This document shows positions 31,610-38,024 of a stretch of 64,000 nt of DNA, in pieces. The notes beneath the pieces were generated by a model. The model ran no database searches and was not told the origin of the DNA. It saw only the letters and a program-made list of their open reading frames with translations. The position numbers and the translations under genes are program-made. This DNA is from Nitrospirota bacterium (GTDB lineage: Bacteria; Nitrospirota; UBA9217). Within the stretch, counting starts at the first letter, position 1, and each line of letters starts with the position of its first letter. The DNA lies in NCBI GenBank assembly GCA_963737155.1, contig CAVTRN010000002.1:1920001-1984000 (forward strand). Reading direction: 5' to 3'.

Positions 31610-33211
31610 ATGAAAATCAGGGACATATCAATAAAATGGAAGCTTGCTGCGCCGATTCTTTTTTTTATAGTCGTGGGAGTGACTATCACAACCGTAGTGA
31701 CGGGGTATAAAACAGAATCCATTGTTCTTCATGAAGTGGAGCGTTCGACTCTTTCGGGATACAGGGATACTATTCTGAATACCCTCACGACTATGATGAT
31801 AGCAAACAATATTAAAGATACCAAAAAGCCGTTCCTCGAGCAGATGCAGAGCATCGTGGATCTGCGTGTCATCCGGTCGGAGAACGTCGACAGAGACTTT
31901 GGGAAAAGTAATGCCGAAGATTACACCGCCGATGACCTGGACCGTGATGTTATCGAAAAAGGAGTGGAAAGGGTCGTCGTGGAAGGAGATTCCATCCGGG
32001 GAGTATATCCTTATATTGCAAAAGAAAATTTCATGGGCAAAAATTGCCTTTCTTGTCACAACGTGAAGGAAGGAACGGTACTGGGAGCCATCAGCATCAA
32101 AGTGCCACTCAGTGAATCCTTCGGCAGGATACGGGCGATGCAGTATCTTTATGGTGTGCTGGGGCTGTGCGGCATTATTGTAATGACCATCATTGTCTTG
32201 GTTCTTGTCCACTTAAACCTTTCACCCATGAAGGACCTGATCGCAAAGGTGAGGCGGGTCGGGGAAGGATATATCGATACATCACTCTACCGAGAAGGCA
32301 AAGACGAAATAGCTCAAATGTCGCAGAATGTGGACATGGTCATCAAACATTTTTCACACATGCTTAATACCATCATTAAGACTTCCGCCAAAATAATGCC
32401 GGCGGTAGACATAGTCAGGGGTCATGCTAATGTCACTTCGGAAGGGGCGAAAAAACAGGCGGGCCAGGCACATGCGATTGCGGCGGCTGCCGAAGAGATG
32501 AACCAGACCATCGCGGACATAGCAAAAAATGCGGGGGAATCCGCCGACAACTCAAAGGAAGCCTTGGAAATAGTGGAAAGCGGGAAACAGATAACGAACA
32601 TTTCCGTAGACACGATCAATGAGCTTAACGGCTCGACACTTGAGCTCTCAAATACAATCGAAAAGCTGAACAAAAGGGCATCGGAGATCGGAAACATCGT
32701 GACAGTCATCAAAGGCATCGCGGACCAGACGAATCTCCTTGCTTTGAATGCAGCAATAGAGGCTGCACGGGCCGGGGAACAGGGAAGAGGGTTTGCTGTA
32801 GTGGCTGACGAGGTAAGAAAACTGGCGGAAAGGACTATTCAGGCGACCGAGGAGATCTCAACGGAAATCGGCGCTATACAGTCGGAGTCCAGCCAGACAG
32901 CAGCTTCGATGGCAGAATCAGCAAAAGGGGTGACAAAGGCCGGTGGACATATCAAGAACCTGAACAATGTTCTTGAGACCATCGTGGAGTCGATTACGAA
33001 GGTGAAGGACCAGATCAATCAGATTGCAACGGCAGTAGAAGAGCAATCGGCAACGGCGGCAGAAATATCTAAAAATATTGAATCCACCTCAACCATTTCA
33101 GGGGACATGGAAAAAATGGCGGACAATGTTGCCAGTGAAGTGCAGCATCTTTCGGATATCGCTGCGGAGCTGGGCAGAGCTACCGCCAATATTAAAACTA
33201 TGAGCAGCTAA
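31610..33211 (+). CDS. Membrane MCP with periplasmic c-type heme sensor domain
   Basis: TM1, CLSCH in the periplasmic region, TM2, [24 protein letters not shown]. Confidence 0.92.
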
Positions 33212-33882
33212 CATATTTACGATGGCCGGAATGACCGTCGGTGACCTCTACCCTAAGTGATGGCCATAGTTCTGAGTTCACTGGTCACAAATATTATGGT
33301 CTGCGGAGATGTGATAAATCTTCATCCCAAGCTGAATCGTCGGGAATATGCCGGGCCAACATTTGTACAGCCAGCCACGTGATGTGCCCAGTAAGGCGCA
33401 GATACATTCAGGATCTTCTCCGGCAAGAAACCGTTGCACAGTAGCTGCTCGTTACTGCTGATATTTCTTTTCCATGAACACCTCTCTATTGATTCAGTGG
33501 TGTTATGATACTGCAGTATGTGGATACCGATTGTCAAAGAACATTTGTCCGAGATGTCGTGGCACAAAAATGTGTTCACGATGTCGTGACCCTTTAACAC
33601 AGGAAAACTACTGACCATTATTGCTGAAGGTTCGGAAAATGGTATGACATAGAAGGCAAACATCAACGCTGCATTTAGTCGAGCTACAGGGCAATAGAGA
33701 ACCTTCATTCGCAGCTCCTTGCTCAAGCACGAAAGGTAACGTCTGCCCATAGTGCTGGTGATAATGCCCAAGCCGAATGAAAGTATTTGGAAATGAAGGA
33801 TGTTTCTAAACATATTTTGACTCATTTGGCCGCCTTGAAGCAGGAATACAAAAGCTAATAGCGGTGCAATTATAAAAATAGT

Positions 33883-34266
33883 ATGAATGAGAATATAATG
33901 CCAGACCACTCGATTGACGCAGCCATTGTGGACGGCGATAAATTAAAGGAACTTATCGGTGCTTTTAAAACATTAAACATAAGATGCCGACTCTTGGTCG
34001 ATGACAAAGAACTGACTCTGGATAACGCAGGACGGTTTTCTGAATCCATTACTCAGGTGAGAGTATTATTAATATACCTGGAGTCGAATTTGGTGAAGTA
34101 CATAAAAGTAATAAACGCACTGAAAGAAGTGCCAAATAAATTAAATATCGCAAATAATAGCTGTCAAAACATTTTGCTGTCGATCCGAGATCTGAAAGAG
34201 CAATATTCGGAACTTGACGGGATAGTTAAAGAAGCAAGGAATGATCTTCAAAATAACCATTTATAA
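33883..34266 (+). CDS. Hypothetical helical/coiled-coil protein
   Basis: 127-aa AT-rich ORF with plausible composition; no motif recognised. Confidence 0.4.
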   Translation: MNENIMPDHSIDAAIVDGDKLKELIGAFKTLNIRCRLLVDDKELTLDNAGRFSESITQVRVLLIYLESNLVKYIKVINALKEVPNKLNIANNSCQNILLSIRDLKEQYSELDGIVKEARNDLQNNHL

Positions 34267-34789
34267 GAAGAATCAATTGACCTATCAAGCAGCTGTAAAA
34301 AACCTACTTGAAGCTGTAAGTCTGTCTGCTTCAAAATCATTGGCCACTCGACCATCGCCGTTGTACGCACCTGCCGTGGCGACGATAGAAGTGATGATAT
34401 GAAATAAAGCGACAATACAAATGGCGGGATCAGAGAAGAACACAGCACAATAGCTGACAGATATTTCCGTTTTGAAGGCGGAATCATAAGAATGCGCCCT
34501 ACTTTTGTGTGTATAGTTCCGGTGACATGAACTATGAGGCAACACTAGTGCAATTTTCATCTTGTATATTTGACCTTGTTACAAAATAGACTATACAACC
34601 TTGTAGGTGAAGACCGGATGAAAAGTATTGTTGGAGAGGTGATAAAAAAATCTGTTTAATTATGTACATTATCTTATGGTTTTTTTGGCGACAATAACTT
34701 CCTGGTTTATTGTTGTCAAGTATTTTTGTAATAAAATAGCGTTTACTTGATGTATGGTTTTTTGTTCATGTTCACGAAAAGTATACCAG

Positions 34790-35090
34790 TAAGGGATATT
34801 CCTCCGAAGTGATGGTTTAAGAGGTCCTCAGTCCTTCGGGGTAAAAATTTTCTCTCACAAATGCCCCAGGATCGGTTTCCCACTGGCAGTCCATATCCTG
34901 ATATCCCCCTAAACATTAATCTTGCGCGGCACCTTGTCCAACCCTGGTAATTAGAGGGTCTCAAGAGAGCCCTGACCTTGCTTCATAGGGACAAAGGTGC
35001 AAGCGGGGATTATTGACTCTGTACTGGAAGGTCGGCTTGGCCGCCTTAGTGGAAGGAGAGATATTTCCCCGCCTACACGCCAAGATTTTG
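34790..35090 (-). ncRNA. Candidate IS110 bridge/seek RNA
   Basis: Two stem/internal-loop/hairpin domains enclosed by a long-range stem, plus a third multi-stem domain, directly after the recombinase stop. Confidence 0.6.
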
Positions 35091-35092
35091 AG

Positions 35093-36349
35093 TTATGCAG
35101 CCTCCTTGAACTGAAATGATGTCCTGGAGTAATCAAAAACACTATTATCTCGCACGATGGCAAATATGATCCGGAGAAGCTTGCGTGCGACAGCGATCAA
35201 GGCCTTGGTCCTTAGCATGCCCCGATCAAGGTATCTCTGATACTGATGTTCCATAACGCAACCCTGACGAACCATATTCATCGCGGCAAAATATAAGAGT
35301 TTCCGCATCAGGGGACGACCACGCTTGGAAATACGACGAGTCCCCCGGTATTTGCCGGAGCTGACTTCAAATAGATCCAGACCGGCGAGTTTCATAATTT
35401 CCCCGATGGTGCTGTACTTCCGAAAGTCGCCCACTTCACCAATGAGGCCAGCAGCGGTAACTTCACCGATTCCTTTGATCGAAAGAAGAGAATTGCTGTA
35501 GGGAATCTGTTTAAGATGATGACTCATTTCCTTTTCCAAACCTTCCGTAAACTTTTCAGAGGCTTCCATGGCAGCAAGAATTGCTTGGGTCTCGAGGAGG
35601 ATGCTTGCTTGGCCCTCAACCACGCCTATGGACGCTCCCGCTGCCTCGTAGAGTGCTTTGGCACAGTCTTCCTTCAGTCTTCCCCGGCTCACCTTTCTCA
35701 TTGTTCCGGTCAGATTATCAAGACCGTATGCGACAAGACTCTGAGGTGCCGGGCAGTGCTTCAATAAGTAGTGTGCGGTTGCAGTCTTTACATTTTTCAC
35801 CACTTGGAGAAACTCGGGGAAGATGATCGCAATCAAGCTCTGGAGTTGGTTCACCAACGCCGTATGGCGCTCCGTGCTCCTTTCCCTGGCCTGAGTAAGC
35901 CTTCGAAGCTCAGCAGCAGGCCCTTCCGGGATCACGACCGTAAGGGCACGGCCAAGCTCTATGATATCTGCGATTATCTTTGGGTCTTTCTGATCGGTTT
36001 TGTTCGGAGAATTACCCTGGAGCTCCTTGACTCTTTTGGTATGCATGGGATTCACTTGCACAAGTCGCACACCCCGTGCTTGCATAAAATGTACGAGAGC
36101 CTCTCCATACGGGCCGGTGGACTCATACCCAAAAACAATCTCATCAAGGCGATGAATCTCCTTTGCTCTTGATATCCGCTCCCAGAACTCCCAGCAGCCG
36201 GCTCCGTTATTTGGAAAGGAGAAGGGCTTCACGTCAGTCCCATCTGGGCAGCGTCAGTATCCAAAATGCTTGTCTTTGCTGATGTCTACCGTCACGATAA
36301 GAGCCTTCCCATTGACTATCTGTTGCTTTTTTGTTTTAATGATCTTCAA
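35093..36349 (-). pseudogene. IS110 (DEDD/Piv) recombinase with premature TGA at codon 32
   Basis: TTG start 36349 after GGAG; VTVDISKDKHFGY*RCPDG in frame with YESTG, KTDQKD, SIKGIG, SSGKY, SKRGRPLMR, AVARKL. Confidence 0.88.
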
Positions 36350-36569
36350 GGCTATACTCCTTTCTCTGATTTATTTACCAACTTGCCAGCTGGTTTTAAA
36401 TCAAGAAAGAGTATAGCCTTCTAACTAAACTTTTTCTACTCTTCTACAATATAGCAAGCTGTAGCAAACGATATAACATTCTTTGCAACAATGCAATTTT
36501 TAACCTGTATTCGATAACATCTTGTCTGAGAAATAGTTCCCCTCACTCAGAACCACACACGAAAATAAC

Positions 36570-36598
36570 TTGACATGTGTAACTTTAAGGGTTACACT
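36570..36598 (+). promoter_or_regulatory. sigma70 promoter with overlapping palindromic operator for higBA
   Basis: TTGACA-N17-TACACT; GTGTAAC-N7-GTTACAC at 36577-36597. Confidence 0.75.
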
Positions 36599-36605
36599 TC
36601 TATAG

Positions 36606-36884
36606 ATGATAATGGCCTTCACGCACAAGGGACTTGAAGACTTCTTTTTCGACGGAACGAAGAAGGGAATTCAGGCGTCTCACGCTCACAAGCTTGCGGA
36701 TATTTTGGATAGACTCGATGCCTCTCACCTTGTGGAGGACATGAGATATCCGGGTTCAGATCTGCATCAGCTAAAAGGACTGTTAAAAGGCTTTTGGGCT
36801 GTAAAGGTTTCCGGCAACTGGCGTGTTGTCTTTGCCTTTAAAGAAGGCAATGCCTATCAGGTAAGCTATCTCGATTATCATTAG
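36606..36884 (+). CDS. higB: HigB-type RelE/ParE toxin
   Basis: FTHKGLEDFF..G, LHQLKG, WAVKVSGNWRVVF, YLDYH. Confidence 0.92.
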   Translation: MIMAFTHKGLEDFFFDGTKKGIQASHAHKLADILDRLDASHLVEDMRYPGSDLHQLKGLLKGFWAVKVSGNWRVVFAFKEGNAYQVSYLDYH

Positions 36885-36896
36885 AAAGGTGAAAAC

Positions 36897-37190
36897 ATGA
36901 GAACGCGAAAGAGAATACCTACCCATCCGGGTGGCATATTGAGAAGGCAGTATATGGAGCCCTTATCCCTCACGGTTTCCGAGCTCGCCAAAACTCTCGG
37001 CGTGTCACGAAAGACTCTGTCGAAAATAGTAAACGAACACGGCGATGTGACGCCTGACATGGCACTTCGTCTCTCCAGGGCATTTAACACTACCCCGGAA
37101 CTTTGGATCAATCTTCAGCGCAATTATGACCTCTGGGAAGCCGCACACAAGTCGAATGACTGGAAGTTGGTTGAGGCGATAGCTATTTAG
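36897..37190 (+). CDS. higA: HigA antitoxin (XRE HTH)
   Basis: PTHPGGIL, VTPDMALRL, TPELWINLQ. Confidence 0.92.
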   Translation: MRTRKRIPTHPGGILRRQYMEPLSLTVSELAKTLGVSRKTLSKIVNEHGDVTPDMALRLSRAFNTTPELWINLQRNYDLWEAAHKSNDWKLVEAIAI

Positions 37191-38024
37191 CCGGGAGTTG
37201 GGTCACCGTTTCCTGCAATAACGAATTATCGGTATTTTAGGTACGGATTTTGTACCTAAAAGGATTTGGTGGATTGGAATGATATGAAATTACCTAGATT
37301 GAAAGGGGGCAGAAGCTTTTACTCCGAAAAAAGTATTGTGCCCTTGGTGTGAGAAAAACAAGGTATTAGAACCGCACTCTTTTGCCATATTAGGCGGTGG
37401 TGCTTTATTAATGAATAGGTAAGATGATTCAGGCGGACCTGATGACAAAATTGACGGTTTTCTTCACTTGTCTTGGCATGGCGCTCACGATGAAGGCCTT
37501 GGCAAAGACAAGGGATTGGTGCAAGTATTGAAATTTGTCGTGACCTTTATTTGTGTGCACGATGTCCTGTCCTTTATCACCTAATGCCTATTTAAATGAA
37601 TAACGTGGTTTCGGGGACCTGACCCGAGAACACAGGACTCTCAAGTCAGTTAATGTCTGCGTTAAAATATCCCCGCCACCTGAAATTCCAGCTTTACATT
37701 GACTTCATATTATACAGTGATAAACTTTACCTATATAGTAATCGTTTATATCCTTTAACAGTTACTCATCTTCATAATATATATATCTCTCTCTTAAAGC
37801 ATAAGCTAAGAGTATAATTCTGATCCTAAATACAGCTAAAGAGATCTGTATTCAGTCTTTGTTAACGGTTTACGGAGATGCACCGATTTAGAGAAGTGCT
37901 GCCGTTGTTGTAATCTGTATTAACTCTGTAGGCCATATATGAAGACACAAGTGCATGGTGCCTTGCTGAACCATTCGGAATGCGAGACACCCTATTCACG
38001 GCACTATGGATAAGGAGGAGCATT

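What the first reader, a model, noticed from the sequence alone, without database searches (positions are those of the whole stretch)
34782..35092. Bridge-RNA-like architecture at the 3' end of an IS110 element
Seen (+ coordinates): outer stem AATCTTG 34918 / CAAGATT 35081 encloses domain 1 (GCACCTTGTCC 34929 / GGACAAAGGTGC 34989, two 15-nt loop strands, hairpin 34955-34973) and domain 2 (GCGGGGA 35003 / TCCCCGC 35066, hairpin 35028-35047). A third domain spans 34792-34910. Loop hexamers CTGGTA and CTTGCT are reverse complements of TACCAG and AGCAAG at the two putative TATA junctions. Circularisation would create TG-G-TATATT, an extended -10. Known: IS110 recombinases use bispecific guide RNAs. 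Inference: an RNA-guided recombinase whose guide layout may differ from IS621. The hexamer matches are short and could be chance.
Basis: partly seen in the sequence, partly recalled or inferred. Interest (0 to 1): 0.75.

Follow-up and report, generated by a model that had tools for sequence, protein, structure and literature searches.

The report
Bridge RNA of an IS110-family element

Summary
They belong to a real bridge RNA, read on the minus strand and starting about 6 nt after the stop codon of an IS110-family recombinase gene (35093-36349). In 58 homologous sequences, 27 of 38 base pairs show compensatory changes. Domain 2 (35003-35072) is the target-binding loop: its two hypervariable strands track the DNA flanking each element in 33 lineages (0 of 5000 permutations). 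Domain 1 (34929-35000) is the donor-binding loop: it matched the element's own ends in 47 of 47 and 51 of 52 rows, and all 16 variant ends were compensated. The core is AG. That TACCAG match is a coincidence inside an optional ~140-nt "third domain", and the predicted empty site does not exist. Joining the ends would build a TTGACA-17-TATATT promoter. This copy's recombinase has an in-frame TGA, but a sister copy 38 kb away is intact. The layout (3' location, reversed strand order of the guides) is already described for IS1111-type elements. This is a new member of a known kind, of modest interest.

The parts
34702..36460 (-). Whole IS110-family element, including the AG core copy at each junction (about 1757 bp)
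   Evidence: Similarity among the copies begins and ends here, allowing for a few conserved target bases. Conserved ends in 80 homolog loci: xxxxAG|CTTGCTATATT at the left and AATAAACCAG|G at the right. Metagenome contigs stop matching at 34698-34702 and 36460-36462.
36461..36466 (-). Left target flank (LT) TGCTAC, followed by core AG at 36459-36460
   Evidence: Shared with sister copy L002 (TGCTTC). Matches the 3' strand of the target-binding loop.
34696..34701 (-). Right target flank (RT) GAAGTT, preceded by core AG at 34702-34703
   Evidence: Identical in all 3 copies, which then diverge. Complementary to the 5' strand of the target-binding loop. A paralogous uninterrupted site reads CAGCTCAG|GAAGTT.
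36453..36458 (-). Right donor half (RD) CTTGCT at the element's left end
   Evidence: Complementary to donor-loop strand AGCAAG. 51 of 52 rows match, and 4 of 4 variant ends are compensated.
34702..34708 (-). Left donor half plus core (AAACC+AG) at the element's right end
   Evidence: Same sense as donor-loop strand ACCAG. 47 of 47 rows match, and 12 of 12 variant ends are compensated.
35093..36349 (-). Recombinase gene (418 codons, TTG start). In this copy an in-frame TGA at 36254-36256 interrupts it, where the sister copy has TGG
   Evidence: Pfam PF01548 + PF02371. NCBIfam NF033542, 216.7 bits (on the sister protein). TGA versus TGG. Distant match to the IS621 transposase 8wt6, E 1.6e-13.
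36348..36420 (-). Left-end inverted repeat that can sequester the ribosome-binding site and start codon
   Evidence: Self-inverted match. The GGCTATACTC...AGGAGTATAGCC motif is conserved in homologs. The function is inferred.
34899..35087 (-). Bridge RNA core as matched by the covariance model
   Evidence: R1 hit, 161.6 bits, E 1e-37, minus strand.
35081..35087 (-). 5' strand of the outer stem P1 (AAUCUUG), pairing with 34918-34924
34918..34924 (-). 3' strand of the outer stem P1 (CAAGAUU)
35003..35072 (-). The 5' loop strand at 35049-35059 contains CUUCC (35051-35055), which reads the top strand of core-G+RT. The 3' loop strand at 35019-35026 contains UACAG (35019-35023), which has the same sense as LT+core
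   Evidence: Stems covary (helices 1 and 3). The loop segments are hypervariable and track the flanks in 33 lineages.
34929..35000 (-). AGCAAG at 34977-34982 reads RD, and ACCAG at 34944-34948 matches LD+core
   Evidence: Stems covary (helices 4-6). The loop strands are conserved and co-vary with the element ends.
34770..34912 (-). Optional 'third domain' module.
   Evidence: In most homologs the right terminus lies 196-260 nt after the recombinase stop codon, against 391 nt here. Metagenome contigs skip 34721/34727 to 34928/34929. The module is shared with two unrelated IS110-family elements.
34714..34719 (-). TTGACA in the right end, which would be the -35 of the junction promoter
   Evidence: It is conserved as CTTGAC in homologs.
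36448..36453 (-). TATATT in the left end (preceded by TGC), which would be the -10 of the junction promoter. It lies 17 nt from the TTGACA once the ends are joined
   Evidence: Sequence. It is conserved as GCTATATT in homologs. The spacing was counted from the coordinates; promoter activity is inferred.

Best explanation
Window 34702-36460 (minus strand) is an IS110-family insertion sequence. Its 3' non-coding end encodes a bridge RNA. The RNA starts about 6 nt after the recombinase stop codon and folds into an outer stem that encloses two stem-loops, each with an internal loop.

The first loop (35003-35072) binds the target. [quoted passage not shown] Its 3' strand has the sense of the top strand to the left of the core, so it pairs with the bottom strand. 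The second loop (34929-35000) reads the joined ends of the element in the same way: AGCAAG pairs with the left end CTTGCT, and ACCAG matches the right end AAACC+AG. Recombination occurs at an AG core, between a circular donor junction (...ATAAACC-AG-CTTGCTAT...) and a target of the form xxxxAG|Gxxxxx. For this copy the target was TGCTACAG|GAAGTT.

Joining the ends also assembles a TTGACA-17 nt-TATATT promoter in front of the recombinase gene.

Shown here: the RNA structure, which strand it lies on, the element boundaries, and the guide-to-target and guide-to-donor correspondence. Inferred from the family: that the RNA is expressed, that it binds the recombinase, and that the promoter works.

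This particular copy has a nonsense codon in its recombinase. Its target guides fit its own site less well than those of a diverged third copy do. It probably depends on the intact sister copy 38 kb upstream.
For: Recombinase family: Pfam PF01548 + PF02371, NCBIfam 'IS110 family RNA-guided transposase' at 216.7 bits against a cutoff of 140, and a distant match to the IS621 transposase structure.

Structure: 58 homologous 3' regions give 38 consensus pairs, 27 of them with compensatory changes. 97.6% of cells pair. Shuffles reach the observed counts in 0 of 500 cases, and slid controls pair at 49% or less.

Strand: frequent G-U pairs, for example 18 of 58 at two basal pairs and 42 of 58 at pair 133-180. 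These would be C-A on the other strand.

Target loop: across 33 distinct guide pairs, the mean longest match of LT to the 3' strand is 5.6 nt against 3.2 permuted. For RT against the reverse complement of the 5' strand it is 6.2 against 3.5. Both give 0 of 5000 permutations. Swapped or opposite-sense controls give 2.6-3.3.

Donor loop: 47 of 47 rows match for the right end and 51 of 52 for the left end (the one exception is a G.T wobble). All 12 + 4 variant ends are compensated.

Boundaries: the alignment of the three copies, conserved termini in 80 loci, contig loose ends at 34698-34702 and 36460-36462, and a collinear uninterrupted paralogous site.

Covariance model: it hits 34899-35087 on the minus strand at 161.6 bits.

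Literature: a 3' location and a top-then-bottom strand order are reported for IS1111-type seekRNAs (PMC11187229, sections 6 and 9). Bridge RNAs in the right end are reported in PMC11208160, section 12.
Against: - There is no expression evidence. No RNA run holds the sequence.
- No promoter or terminator for the RNA itself was found by the simple scan.
- The window's own guides match its own site over only 5 + 5 nt.
- The genome holds no exact site for the present guides.
- The recombinase of this copy is interrupted by a TGA.
- The single-sequence fold is unremarkable on the RNA strand: z = -1.39, with 9 of 100 shuffles as good. It is better on the opposite strand, z = -2.46.
- Rfam has no match.
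- The covariance model finds nothing in the nearest named relatives tested (a Cytobacillus IS, ISBth13, ISEc20), so the RNA model is specific to this clade.
Confidence: 0.93

Rival explanations
1. The element ends at TATA junctions (34788 and about 36450). The two strands of domain 1 read the flanking target DNA there, and the empty site is GAAAAGTATAGCAAGC.
For: The hexamers are truly complementary, and TATA occurs at both places.
Against: All three copies remain alike for 92 nt past 34788. That 92-nt stretch occurs nowhere else in the genome. The empty site is absent with up to 3 mismatches. The domain 1 loop strands are conserved across homologs that have different targets, and they co-vary with the element's termini instead. 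The TACCAG lies in a module that most homologs lack, and there it pairs with the module's own 5' end.
Confidence: 0.01
2. The structure is an ordinary 3' untranslated element of the recombinase mRNA (terminator, stabiliser or translational regulator) with no guide function.
For: It directly follows the stop codon. No separate promoter was found. There is no expression data.
Against: Two loop segments vary in step with the flanking DNA on both sides. Two others vary in step with the element's ends. All are in the strand sense expected for a bridge RNA. A stabiliser would not do this. No terminator-like site was found.
Confidence: 0.03
3. The bridge RNA is real for the family, but the window copy is a decaying relic that no longer moves, even with help in trans.
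For: There is a nonsense codon in the recombinase. Its target guides fit its own site (5 + 5 nt) worse than the guides of the diverged copy on contig 1 do (7 + 7 nt). No exact site for its present guides exists in the genome.
Against: Its ends, donor loop and all helices are intact. Apart from one base in an apical loop, its bridge RNA is identical to that of the sister copy, whose recombinase is intact. One exact and 14 one-mismatch sites of the ancestral target type exist in the genome, against 10 for the reversed-pattern control.
Confidence: 0.35

Closest known systems
IS621 bridge RNA and recombinase (IS110 group; Durrant et al. 2024, PMC11208160; structures 8wt6-8wt9)
   Same: A DEDD + Tnp C-terminal recombinase. 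One RNA carries a target-binding loop followed by a donor-binding loop, and both are simple internal loops. Each loop reads both DNA strands around a 2-nt core. A short ATA...TAT inverted repeat brackets the donor (here ATA-AACCAGCTTGC-TAT). A junction promoter forms on the circle.
   Different: Here the RNA is in the right end, 3' of the gene, not in the left end. In each loop the 5' strand pairs with the top DNA strand and the 3' strand with the bottom strand, the reverse of IS621 (passage read). An outer stem encloses both loops. The core is AG. The recombinase has 418 aa, and the PDB match (8wt6, a 328-residue chain) is weak at E 1.6e-13.
IS1111-type seekRNA / right-end bridge RNA (ISEc11, ISPa11, ISKpn4; Siddiquee et al. 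2024, PMC11187229)
   Same: The non-coding region and the guide RNA lie downstream of the recombinase gene. The segment complementary to the top strand lies 5' of the one complementary to the bottom strand. The two target matches overlap at the crossover point.
   Different: There are no 7-17 bp subterminal inverted repeats here: the longest perfect repeat is 5 bp in the window, and only 2 of 43 lineages reach 7 bp. The recombinase has 418 aa, not 330-350. The donor is read by a simple internal loop, whereas Durrant et al. note a multi-loop for many IS1111 members.
ISPpu9 with its ssr9 small-RNA module (Pares-Guillen et al. 2025, PMC12288879; abstract only)
   Same: An extra, dispensable RNA-like module sits downstream of the recombinase gene of an IS110-family element. 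It is present in some copies and relatives and absent in others.
   Different: No solitary copies of the window's module were found in this genome. No second set of element ends flanks it. There is no evidence that it is transcribed or that it moves on its own.

Membership tests
IS110-family bridge-RNA recombination system | Recombinase with a DEDD (RuvC-like) N-terminal domain and an IS116/IS110/IS902 C-terminal domain | tested here: met
   PF01548 at 1.8e-21 and PF02371 at 3.9e-21. NF033542 at 216.7 bits, above the cutoff of 140. The window copy carries an in-frame TGA; the sister copy is intact.
IS110-family bridge-RNA recombination system | Structured non-coding RNA with two guide-bearing loops in a non-coding end of the element | tested here: met
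   38 pairs, 27 with compensatory changes, 97.6% paired, 0 of 500 shuffles.
IS110-family bridge-RNA recombination system | One loop co-varies with the flanking target DNA, one strand per side, in opposite strand senses | tested here: met
   33 lineages, 0 of 5000 permutations on each side. Swapped and opposite-sense controls are at background.
IS110-family bridge-RNA recombination system | The other loop matches the two ends of the element (the donor) | tested here: met
   47 of 47 and 51 of 52 rows. 16 of 16 variant ends are compensated.
IS110-family bridge-RNA recombination system | A short core shared by donor and target, present at both junctions | tested here: met
   AG precedes CTTGCT at the left junction and ends AAACCAG at the right junction in the window and its homologs. 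A collinear uninterrupted paralogous site has a single AG.
IS110-family bridge-RNA recombination system | The RNA is expressed, binds the recombinase and is needed for recombination | not testable with these tools
   No RNA run holds the sequence.
IS1111 group of the IS110 family | Long non-coding region and guide RNA downstream of the recombinase gene | tested here: met
   The left end is about 109 nt and the right end about 390 nt. The RNA lies at 34899-35087, just after the stop codon at 35093-35095.
IS1111 group of the IS110 family | Subterminal inverted repeats of 7-17 bp | tested here: not met
   The longest perfect inverted repeat next to the donor is 5 bp in the window (ATTGT). Over 43 distinct end pairs the distribution is 3 bp (12), 4 bp (13), 5 bp (14), 6 bp (2) and 7 bp (2), barely above a same-sense control.
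IS1111 group of the IS110 family | Compact recombinase (330-350 aa) related over its full length to that of IS1111 | tested here: inconclusive
   The protein has 418 aa. Full-length tblastn hits on plasmids carry the names IS116, ISBth13, ISEc20 and ISRel25 (24-27% identity). The abundant Klebsiella plasmid IS110-family genes align only over residues 271-408. No named IS1111 reference was compared and no tree was made.
IS1111 group of the IS110 family | The guide segment complementary to the top strand lies 5' of the one complementary to the bottom strand | tested here: met
   read against PMC11187229 section 9.
IS110 group (IS621-like) | Bridge RNA in a long left end, upstream of the gene, with the 5' loop strand pairing to the bottom DNA strand | tested here: not met
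   The RNA is in the right end and the strand order is reversed.

The most novel reading that the evidence does not exclude
The ~140-nt 'third domain' (34770-34912) may be an exchangeable accessory nucleic-acid module. It has been passed between at least three unrelated IS110-family elements, whose recombinases are about 22% identical, within one bacterial family. It is always found on the recombinase strand, downstream of the gene. It could be a host-adapted helper of bridge-RNA maturation or stability, or a hitch-hiking selfish RNA like ssr9. A second point: this clade combines an IS110-type long recombinase and a short ATA/TAT repeat with a right-end RNA and the IS1111-type strand order. 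That would mean the strand order follows the RNA's position in the element rather than the recombinase lineage.
Probability: 0.25. Interest if true: 0.5.

Novelty: new member of a known kind. Interest (0 to 1): 0.3.

Why it matters
The finding adds a well-documented natural family of bridge RNAs. It covers 33 distinct guide pairs with their targets, and 16 compensated donor variants. The two loops are simple and IS621-like, but the RNA lies 3' of the gene. This gives a clean comparative data set on which loop positions are programmable and on how strand order relates to the RNA's position. The mechanism itself has been in print since 2024, so it would not surprise a specialist. The only open element is the optional third module shared among unrelated elements.

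Tried and rejected
- Rfam scan of 33000-38000 at E up to 1: only a chance snoRNA-like hit on the other strand.
- An orthologous empty site in the genus: the right flank gave only repeats and paralogs, with no ortholog. One uninterrupted paralog was used instead.
- RNA evidence: no RNA holder was listed. Four DNA runs were laid as contigs. They gave boundaries and module-less variants, but no circle junction and no empty site.
- Third domain as a structured RNA: only 5 of 28 predicted pairs have a compensatory change in 14 mostly close sequences, so this is unresolved.
- Third domain as a small protein gene: 19 of 20 distinct copies start with ATG and read MDCPGKIDPGAFVR.... This was rejected because minimum changes per codon position are 22/21/21, and the synonymous share in that frame (292 of 1104) is lower than in the other two frames (358 of 891; 308 of 926).
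- Covariance model R1 on the nearest named relatives (a Cytobacillus IS, ISBth13, ISEc20, a Klebsiella plasmid IS) and on the two other IS families of this genus: no hit.
- Search for sites matching the window's present guides: none exact, 26 with up to 2 mismatches against 93 for the control.
- Simple promoter and terminator scan: no promoter for the RNA and no terminator.
- A tree placing the recombinase among named IS110 and IS1111 references was not made.
- Supplementary files of the papers were not opened. The ISfinder-wide tables in them may already list this clade.

Full report
WHAT IS THERE. The window carries an IS110-family recombinase gene on the minus strand, from a TTG start at 36349 to a TAA stop at 35093-35095. 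It matches Pfam PF01548 and PF02371. The sister protein matches the NCBIfam model 'IS110 family RNA-guided transposase' at 216.7 bits, and it matches the solved IS621 transposase only distantly, at E 1.6e-13. In this copy codon 32 is TGA. A 97%-identical copy 38 kb upstream, outside the window, has TGG there and an open 418-codon frame. A third, fragmentary copy of about 92% identity lies on the other contig.

THE OBSERVATION. On its own the fold is not striking: z = -1.39 on the recombinase strand and -2.46 on the other. Rfam has no match. The evidence therefore had to come from relatives.

RELATIVES. A scan of species-representative genomes found 136 relatives among 175 candidate stretches, and the best 80 were kept. 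They are 49-91% identical in protein and come mostly from Nitrospirota and Desulfobacterota-type metagenome bins. I took the DNA after each stop codon. 75 sequences had at least 200 nt, and 59 of these were distinct.

STRUCTURE. For 58 sequences (the window, the sister copy and 56 distinct loci with at least 195 nt; L115 was dropped because its stop codon was misplaced), RNAalifold gives 38 pairs, 27 of them with compensatory changes. Counting on that structure shows 97.6% of cells paired and 269 double-change cells against 65 in shuffles (0 of 500 shuffles reach this). Partners slid by 1-3 columns pair at 49% or less. Frequent G-U pairs place the RNA on the recombinase strand. The outer stem aligned badly, so I tested it as a duplex between the 5' and 3' tails. 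In 49 distinct pairs the cognate mean is -6.9 kcal/mol against -5.2 for non-cognate pairs, with 0 of 2000 permutations as good. It is clear in the window's clade and weak in the L114-L129 clade. A covariance model built from the alignment hits the window once, at 34899-35087 on the minus strand, at 161.6 bits.

BOUNDARIES. The three genomic copies stay alike down to 34696 and then diverge. In all homologs the left end reads xxxxAG|CTTGCTATATT and the right end reads CTTGACxxCAATAAACCAG|Gxxxx. The element is therefore 36460-34702, with an AG at each junction. For this copy the target is TGCTAC-AG-GAAGTT. There are two independent checks. Soil-metagenome contigs of related elements stop matching at 34698-34702 and 36460-36462. 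An uninterrupted paralogous site in the same genome reads ...CAGCTCAG|GAAGTTTTTG... and is collinear with both flanks without a gap, although the left-side similarity is weak at E 0.14.

WHICH LOOP READS WHAT. In domain 1 the loop strands are conserved across the family (...AAGCAAG... and ...UACCAGG...). They match the element's own ends. ACCAG has the sense of the right terminus AAACC+AG, and 47 of 47 rows match, including 12 of 12 variant termini (ACTAG, ACAAG, ATAAG, ATCAG). AGCAAG is the reverse complement of the left terminus CTTGCT, and 51 of 52 rows match (the exception is a G.T wobble), including 4 of 4 variants (CGTGCT, CGAGCT, CTTACT). Domain 1 is therefore the donor-binding loop.

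Domain 2 has conserved stems and two hypervariable loop segments. I extracted both segments and both flanks by pattern from 81 rows. I then kept one representative per distinct guide pair that had all four fields. Rows cut by contig ends, rows where the pattern failed, and duplicates were dropped. This left 33 lineages. The 3' segment matches the left flank plus core in the same sense: the mean longest match is 5.6 nt against 3.2 when flanks are permuted. The reverse complement of the 5' segment matches core-G plus the right flank: 6.2 against 3.5. Both give 0 of 5000 permutations. Swapped or opposite-sense pairings give 2.6-3.3. Domain 2 is therefore the target-binding loop.

THE WINDOW COPY ITSELF. 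Its guides match its own site over 5 + 5 nt (UACAG; CUUCC against GGAAG). The diverged copy on contig 1 carries guides that fit the same sites over 7 + 7 nt, and over 8 nt at the sister copy's right flank. This explains why GAAGTT and GCTxCAG are shared by the flanks beyond what the window's guides cover. The window and sister guides have therefore drifted since insertion, or the insertions were guided by a contig-1-type RNA. The genome has one exact and 14 one-mismatch unoccupied sites of the ancestral type, against 10 for a reversed-pattern control. It has none that exactly fit the present guides.

PROMOTER. The right end carries TTGACA (34719-34714), conserved as CTTGAC in homologs. The left end carries TGC-TATATT (36456-36448). 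Joining 34702 to 36458 puts them 17 nt apart, which is a near-consensus promoter in front of the recombinase gene. Promoter activity is inferred (and the sequence). No separate promoter or terminator for the RNA was found, so co-transcription with the gene followed by processing is my inference.

THE THIRD DOMAIN. In most homologs the right terminus lies 196-260 nt after the stop codon. Here it lies 391 nt after it. Metagenome contigs join 34721/34727 directly to 34928/34929, or to 34839. The extra DNA contains a block conserved at the nucleotide level (34848-34912). The block also occurs downstream of the recombinase genes of two other IS110-family elements. Their recombinases either share about 22% identity with this one or give no local hit. 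One element is 1755 bp, has six copies in this genome and has a 12-bp subterminal repeat. The other is about 1640 bp, is found in sister genomes and encodes a 356-aa recombinase. The block was found in 11 of 401 genomes sampled across the phylum, 8 of 63 in the window's family. Fold evidence is weak: 5 of 28 pairs. A small-ORF reading was rejected on codon-position statistics. I could not assign a function. The nearest precedent is the dispensable ssr9 module of ISPpu9 (abstract only).

COMPARISON WITH WHAT IS KNOWN. In IS621 the bridge RNA lies in the left end. [quoted passage not shown] Here the position and the strand order are both reversed. Siddiquee et al. report exactly that for IS1111-type seekRNAs (PMC11187229, abstract and sections 6 and 9). 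Durrant et al. predict right-end bridge RNAs for 93% of IS1111 members (section 12). Yet this clade does not meet the criteria that define IS1111. Its subterminal repeat is 3-7 bp (5 bp in the window; 2 of 43 lineages reach 7). Its recombinase has 418 aa rather than 330-350. Its full-length plasmid relatives carry IS110-type names such as IS116, ISBth13 and ISEc20. Siddiquee et al. note that some IS110-type elements have a 3' non-coding region (section 6). This clade looks like one of those. I therefore file it under the IS110 family. It works like an IS1111-type element in RNA position and strand order, and like IS621 in having two simple internal loops. I did not see the papers' supplements, which may already list the clade.

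VERDICT. This is a real bridge RNA, correctly spotted. The mechanism is known, so this is a new member of a known kind. Interest is 0.3. The third module is the only unexplained part.

Noticed in passing
G000 contig 2: 925k, 233k, 2320k, 498k, 172k; contig 1: 842k (loci L006, L007, L009-L012): A second IS110-family element of about 1755 bp, in six copies that are 99.6-100% identical. It has a perfect 12-bp subterminal inverted repeat, GGTTGACAGTTG, and a 530-nt 3' non-coding region. It carries the window's 65-nt third-domain block right after its stop codon.
   Followed up: partly
L027, L028, L034-L036, L040-L047, L049 (sister genomes G001, G009, G010, G011): A third IS110-family element of about 1640 bp, with a 356-aa recombinase and a 460-nt 3' region. 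It carries the whole third-domain module about 70 nt from its 3' end.
   Followed up: partly
window 36348-36420 (-): A long inverted repeat in the left end (GGCTATACTCTTTCT...AGAAAGGAGTATAGCC) that could hide the ribosome-binding site and the TTG start codon. It is conserved in all homologs seen.
   Followed up: no
L016 / G000 contig 1: 837898-839064: The fragmentary, ~92%-identical copy carries target guides (GGCUACAG; UCAACUUCCAC) that fit the insertion sites of all three copies better than the window's own guides do.
   Followed up: yes
L005 / G000 contig 2: 2089597-2089686: An orphan, decayed bridge-RNA remnant (donor loop plus a right terminus ...CAACAATACACCAG) with no recombinase gene and no third module. 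The covariance model scores it 63.5 bits.
   Followed up: partly
L051, L053, L072-L082, L079, L080, L084, L087, L088, L095, L098, L099, L107: In one subclade the targets lie in runs of about three tandem octamers (such as CACCGCAGAG|ACGCAAAGGACGCAGAG), sometimes with an inverted copy about 40 nt away. This looks like REP-type palindromic repeats. The two strands of the target loop are then complementary to each other.
   Followed up: partly
window 34691-34719 (-): In the integrated state the right-end TTGACA sits 17 nt from a flank TATTGT. This is an outward-facing promoter-like site (10 of 12 matches) pointing into the neighbouring DNA.
   Followed up: no
window 34447-34543: A ~97-nt stretch just outside the element is a multi-copy repeat in sister genomes (13 places in G002, up to 8 in G011), 74-82% identical. 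Its nature is unknown.
   Followed up: no
window 36606-37190 (+): A HigB-like toxin (PF05015, 2.2e-22) and an HTH antitoxin-like gene (PF01381, 5e-12) lie directly beside the element's left end.
   Followed up: partly
window 31610-33211 (+): A methyl-accepting chemotaxis protein (PF00015, 1.1e-45) lies on the element's right-flank side. The 127-aa ORF at 33883-34266 has no Pfam match.
   Followed up: partly
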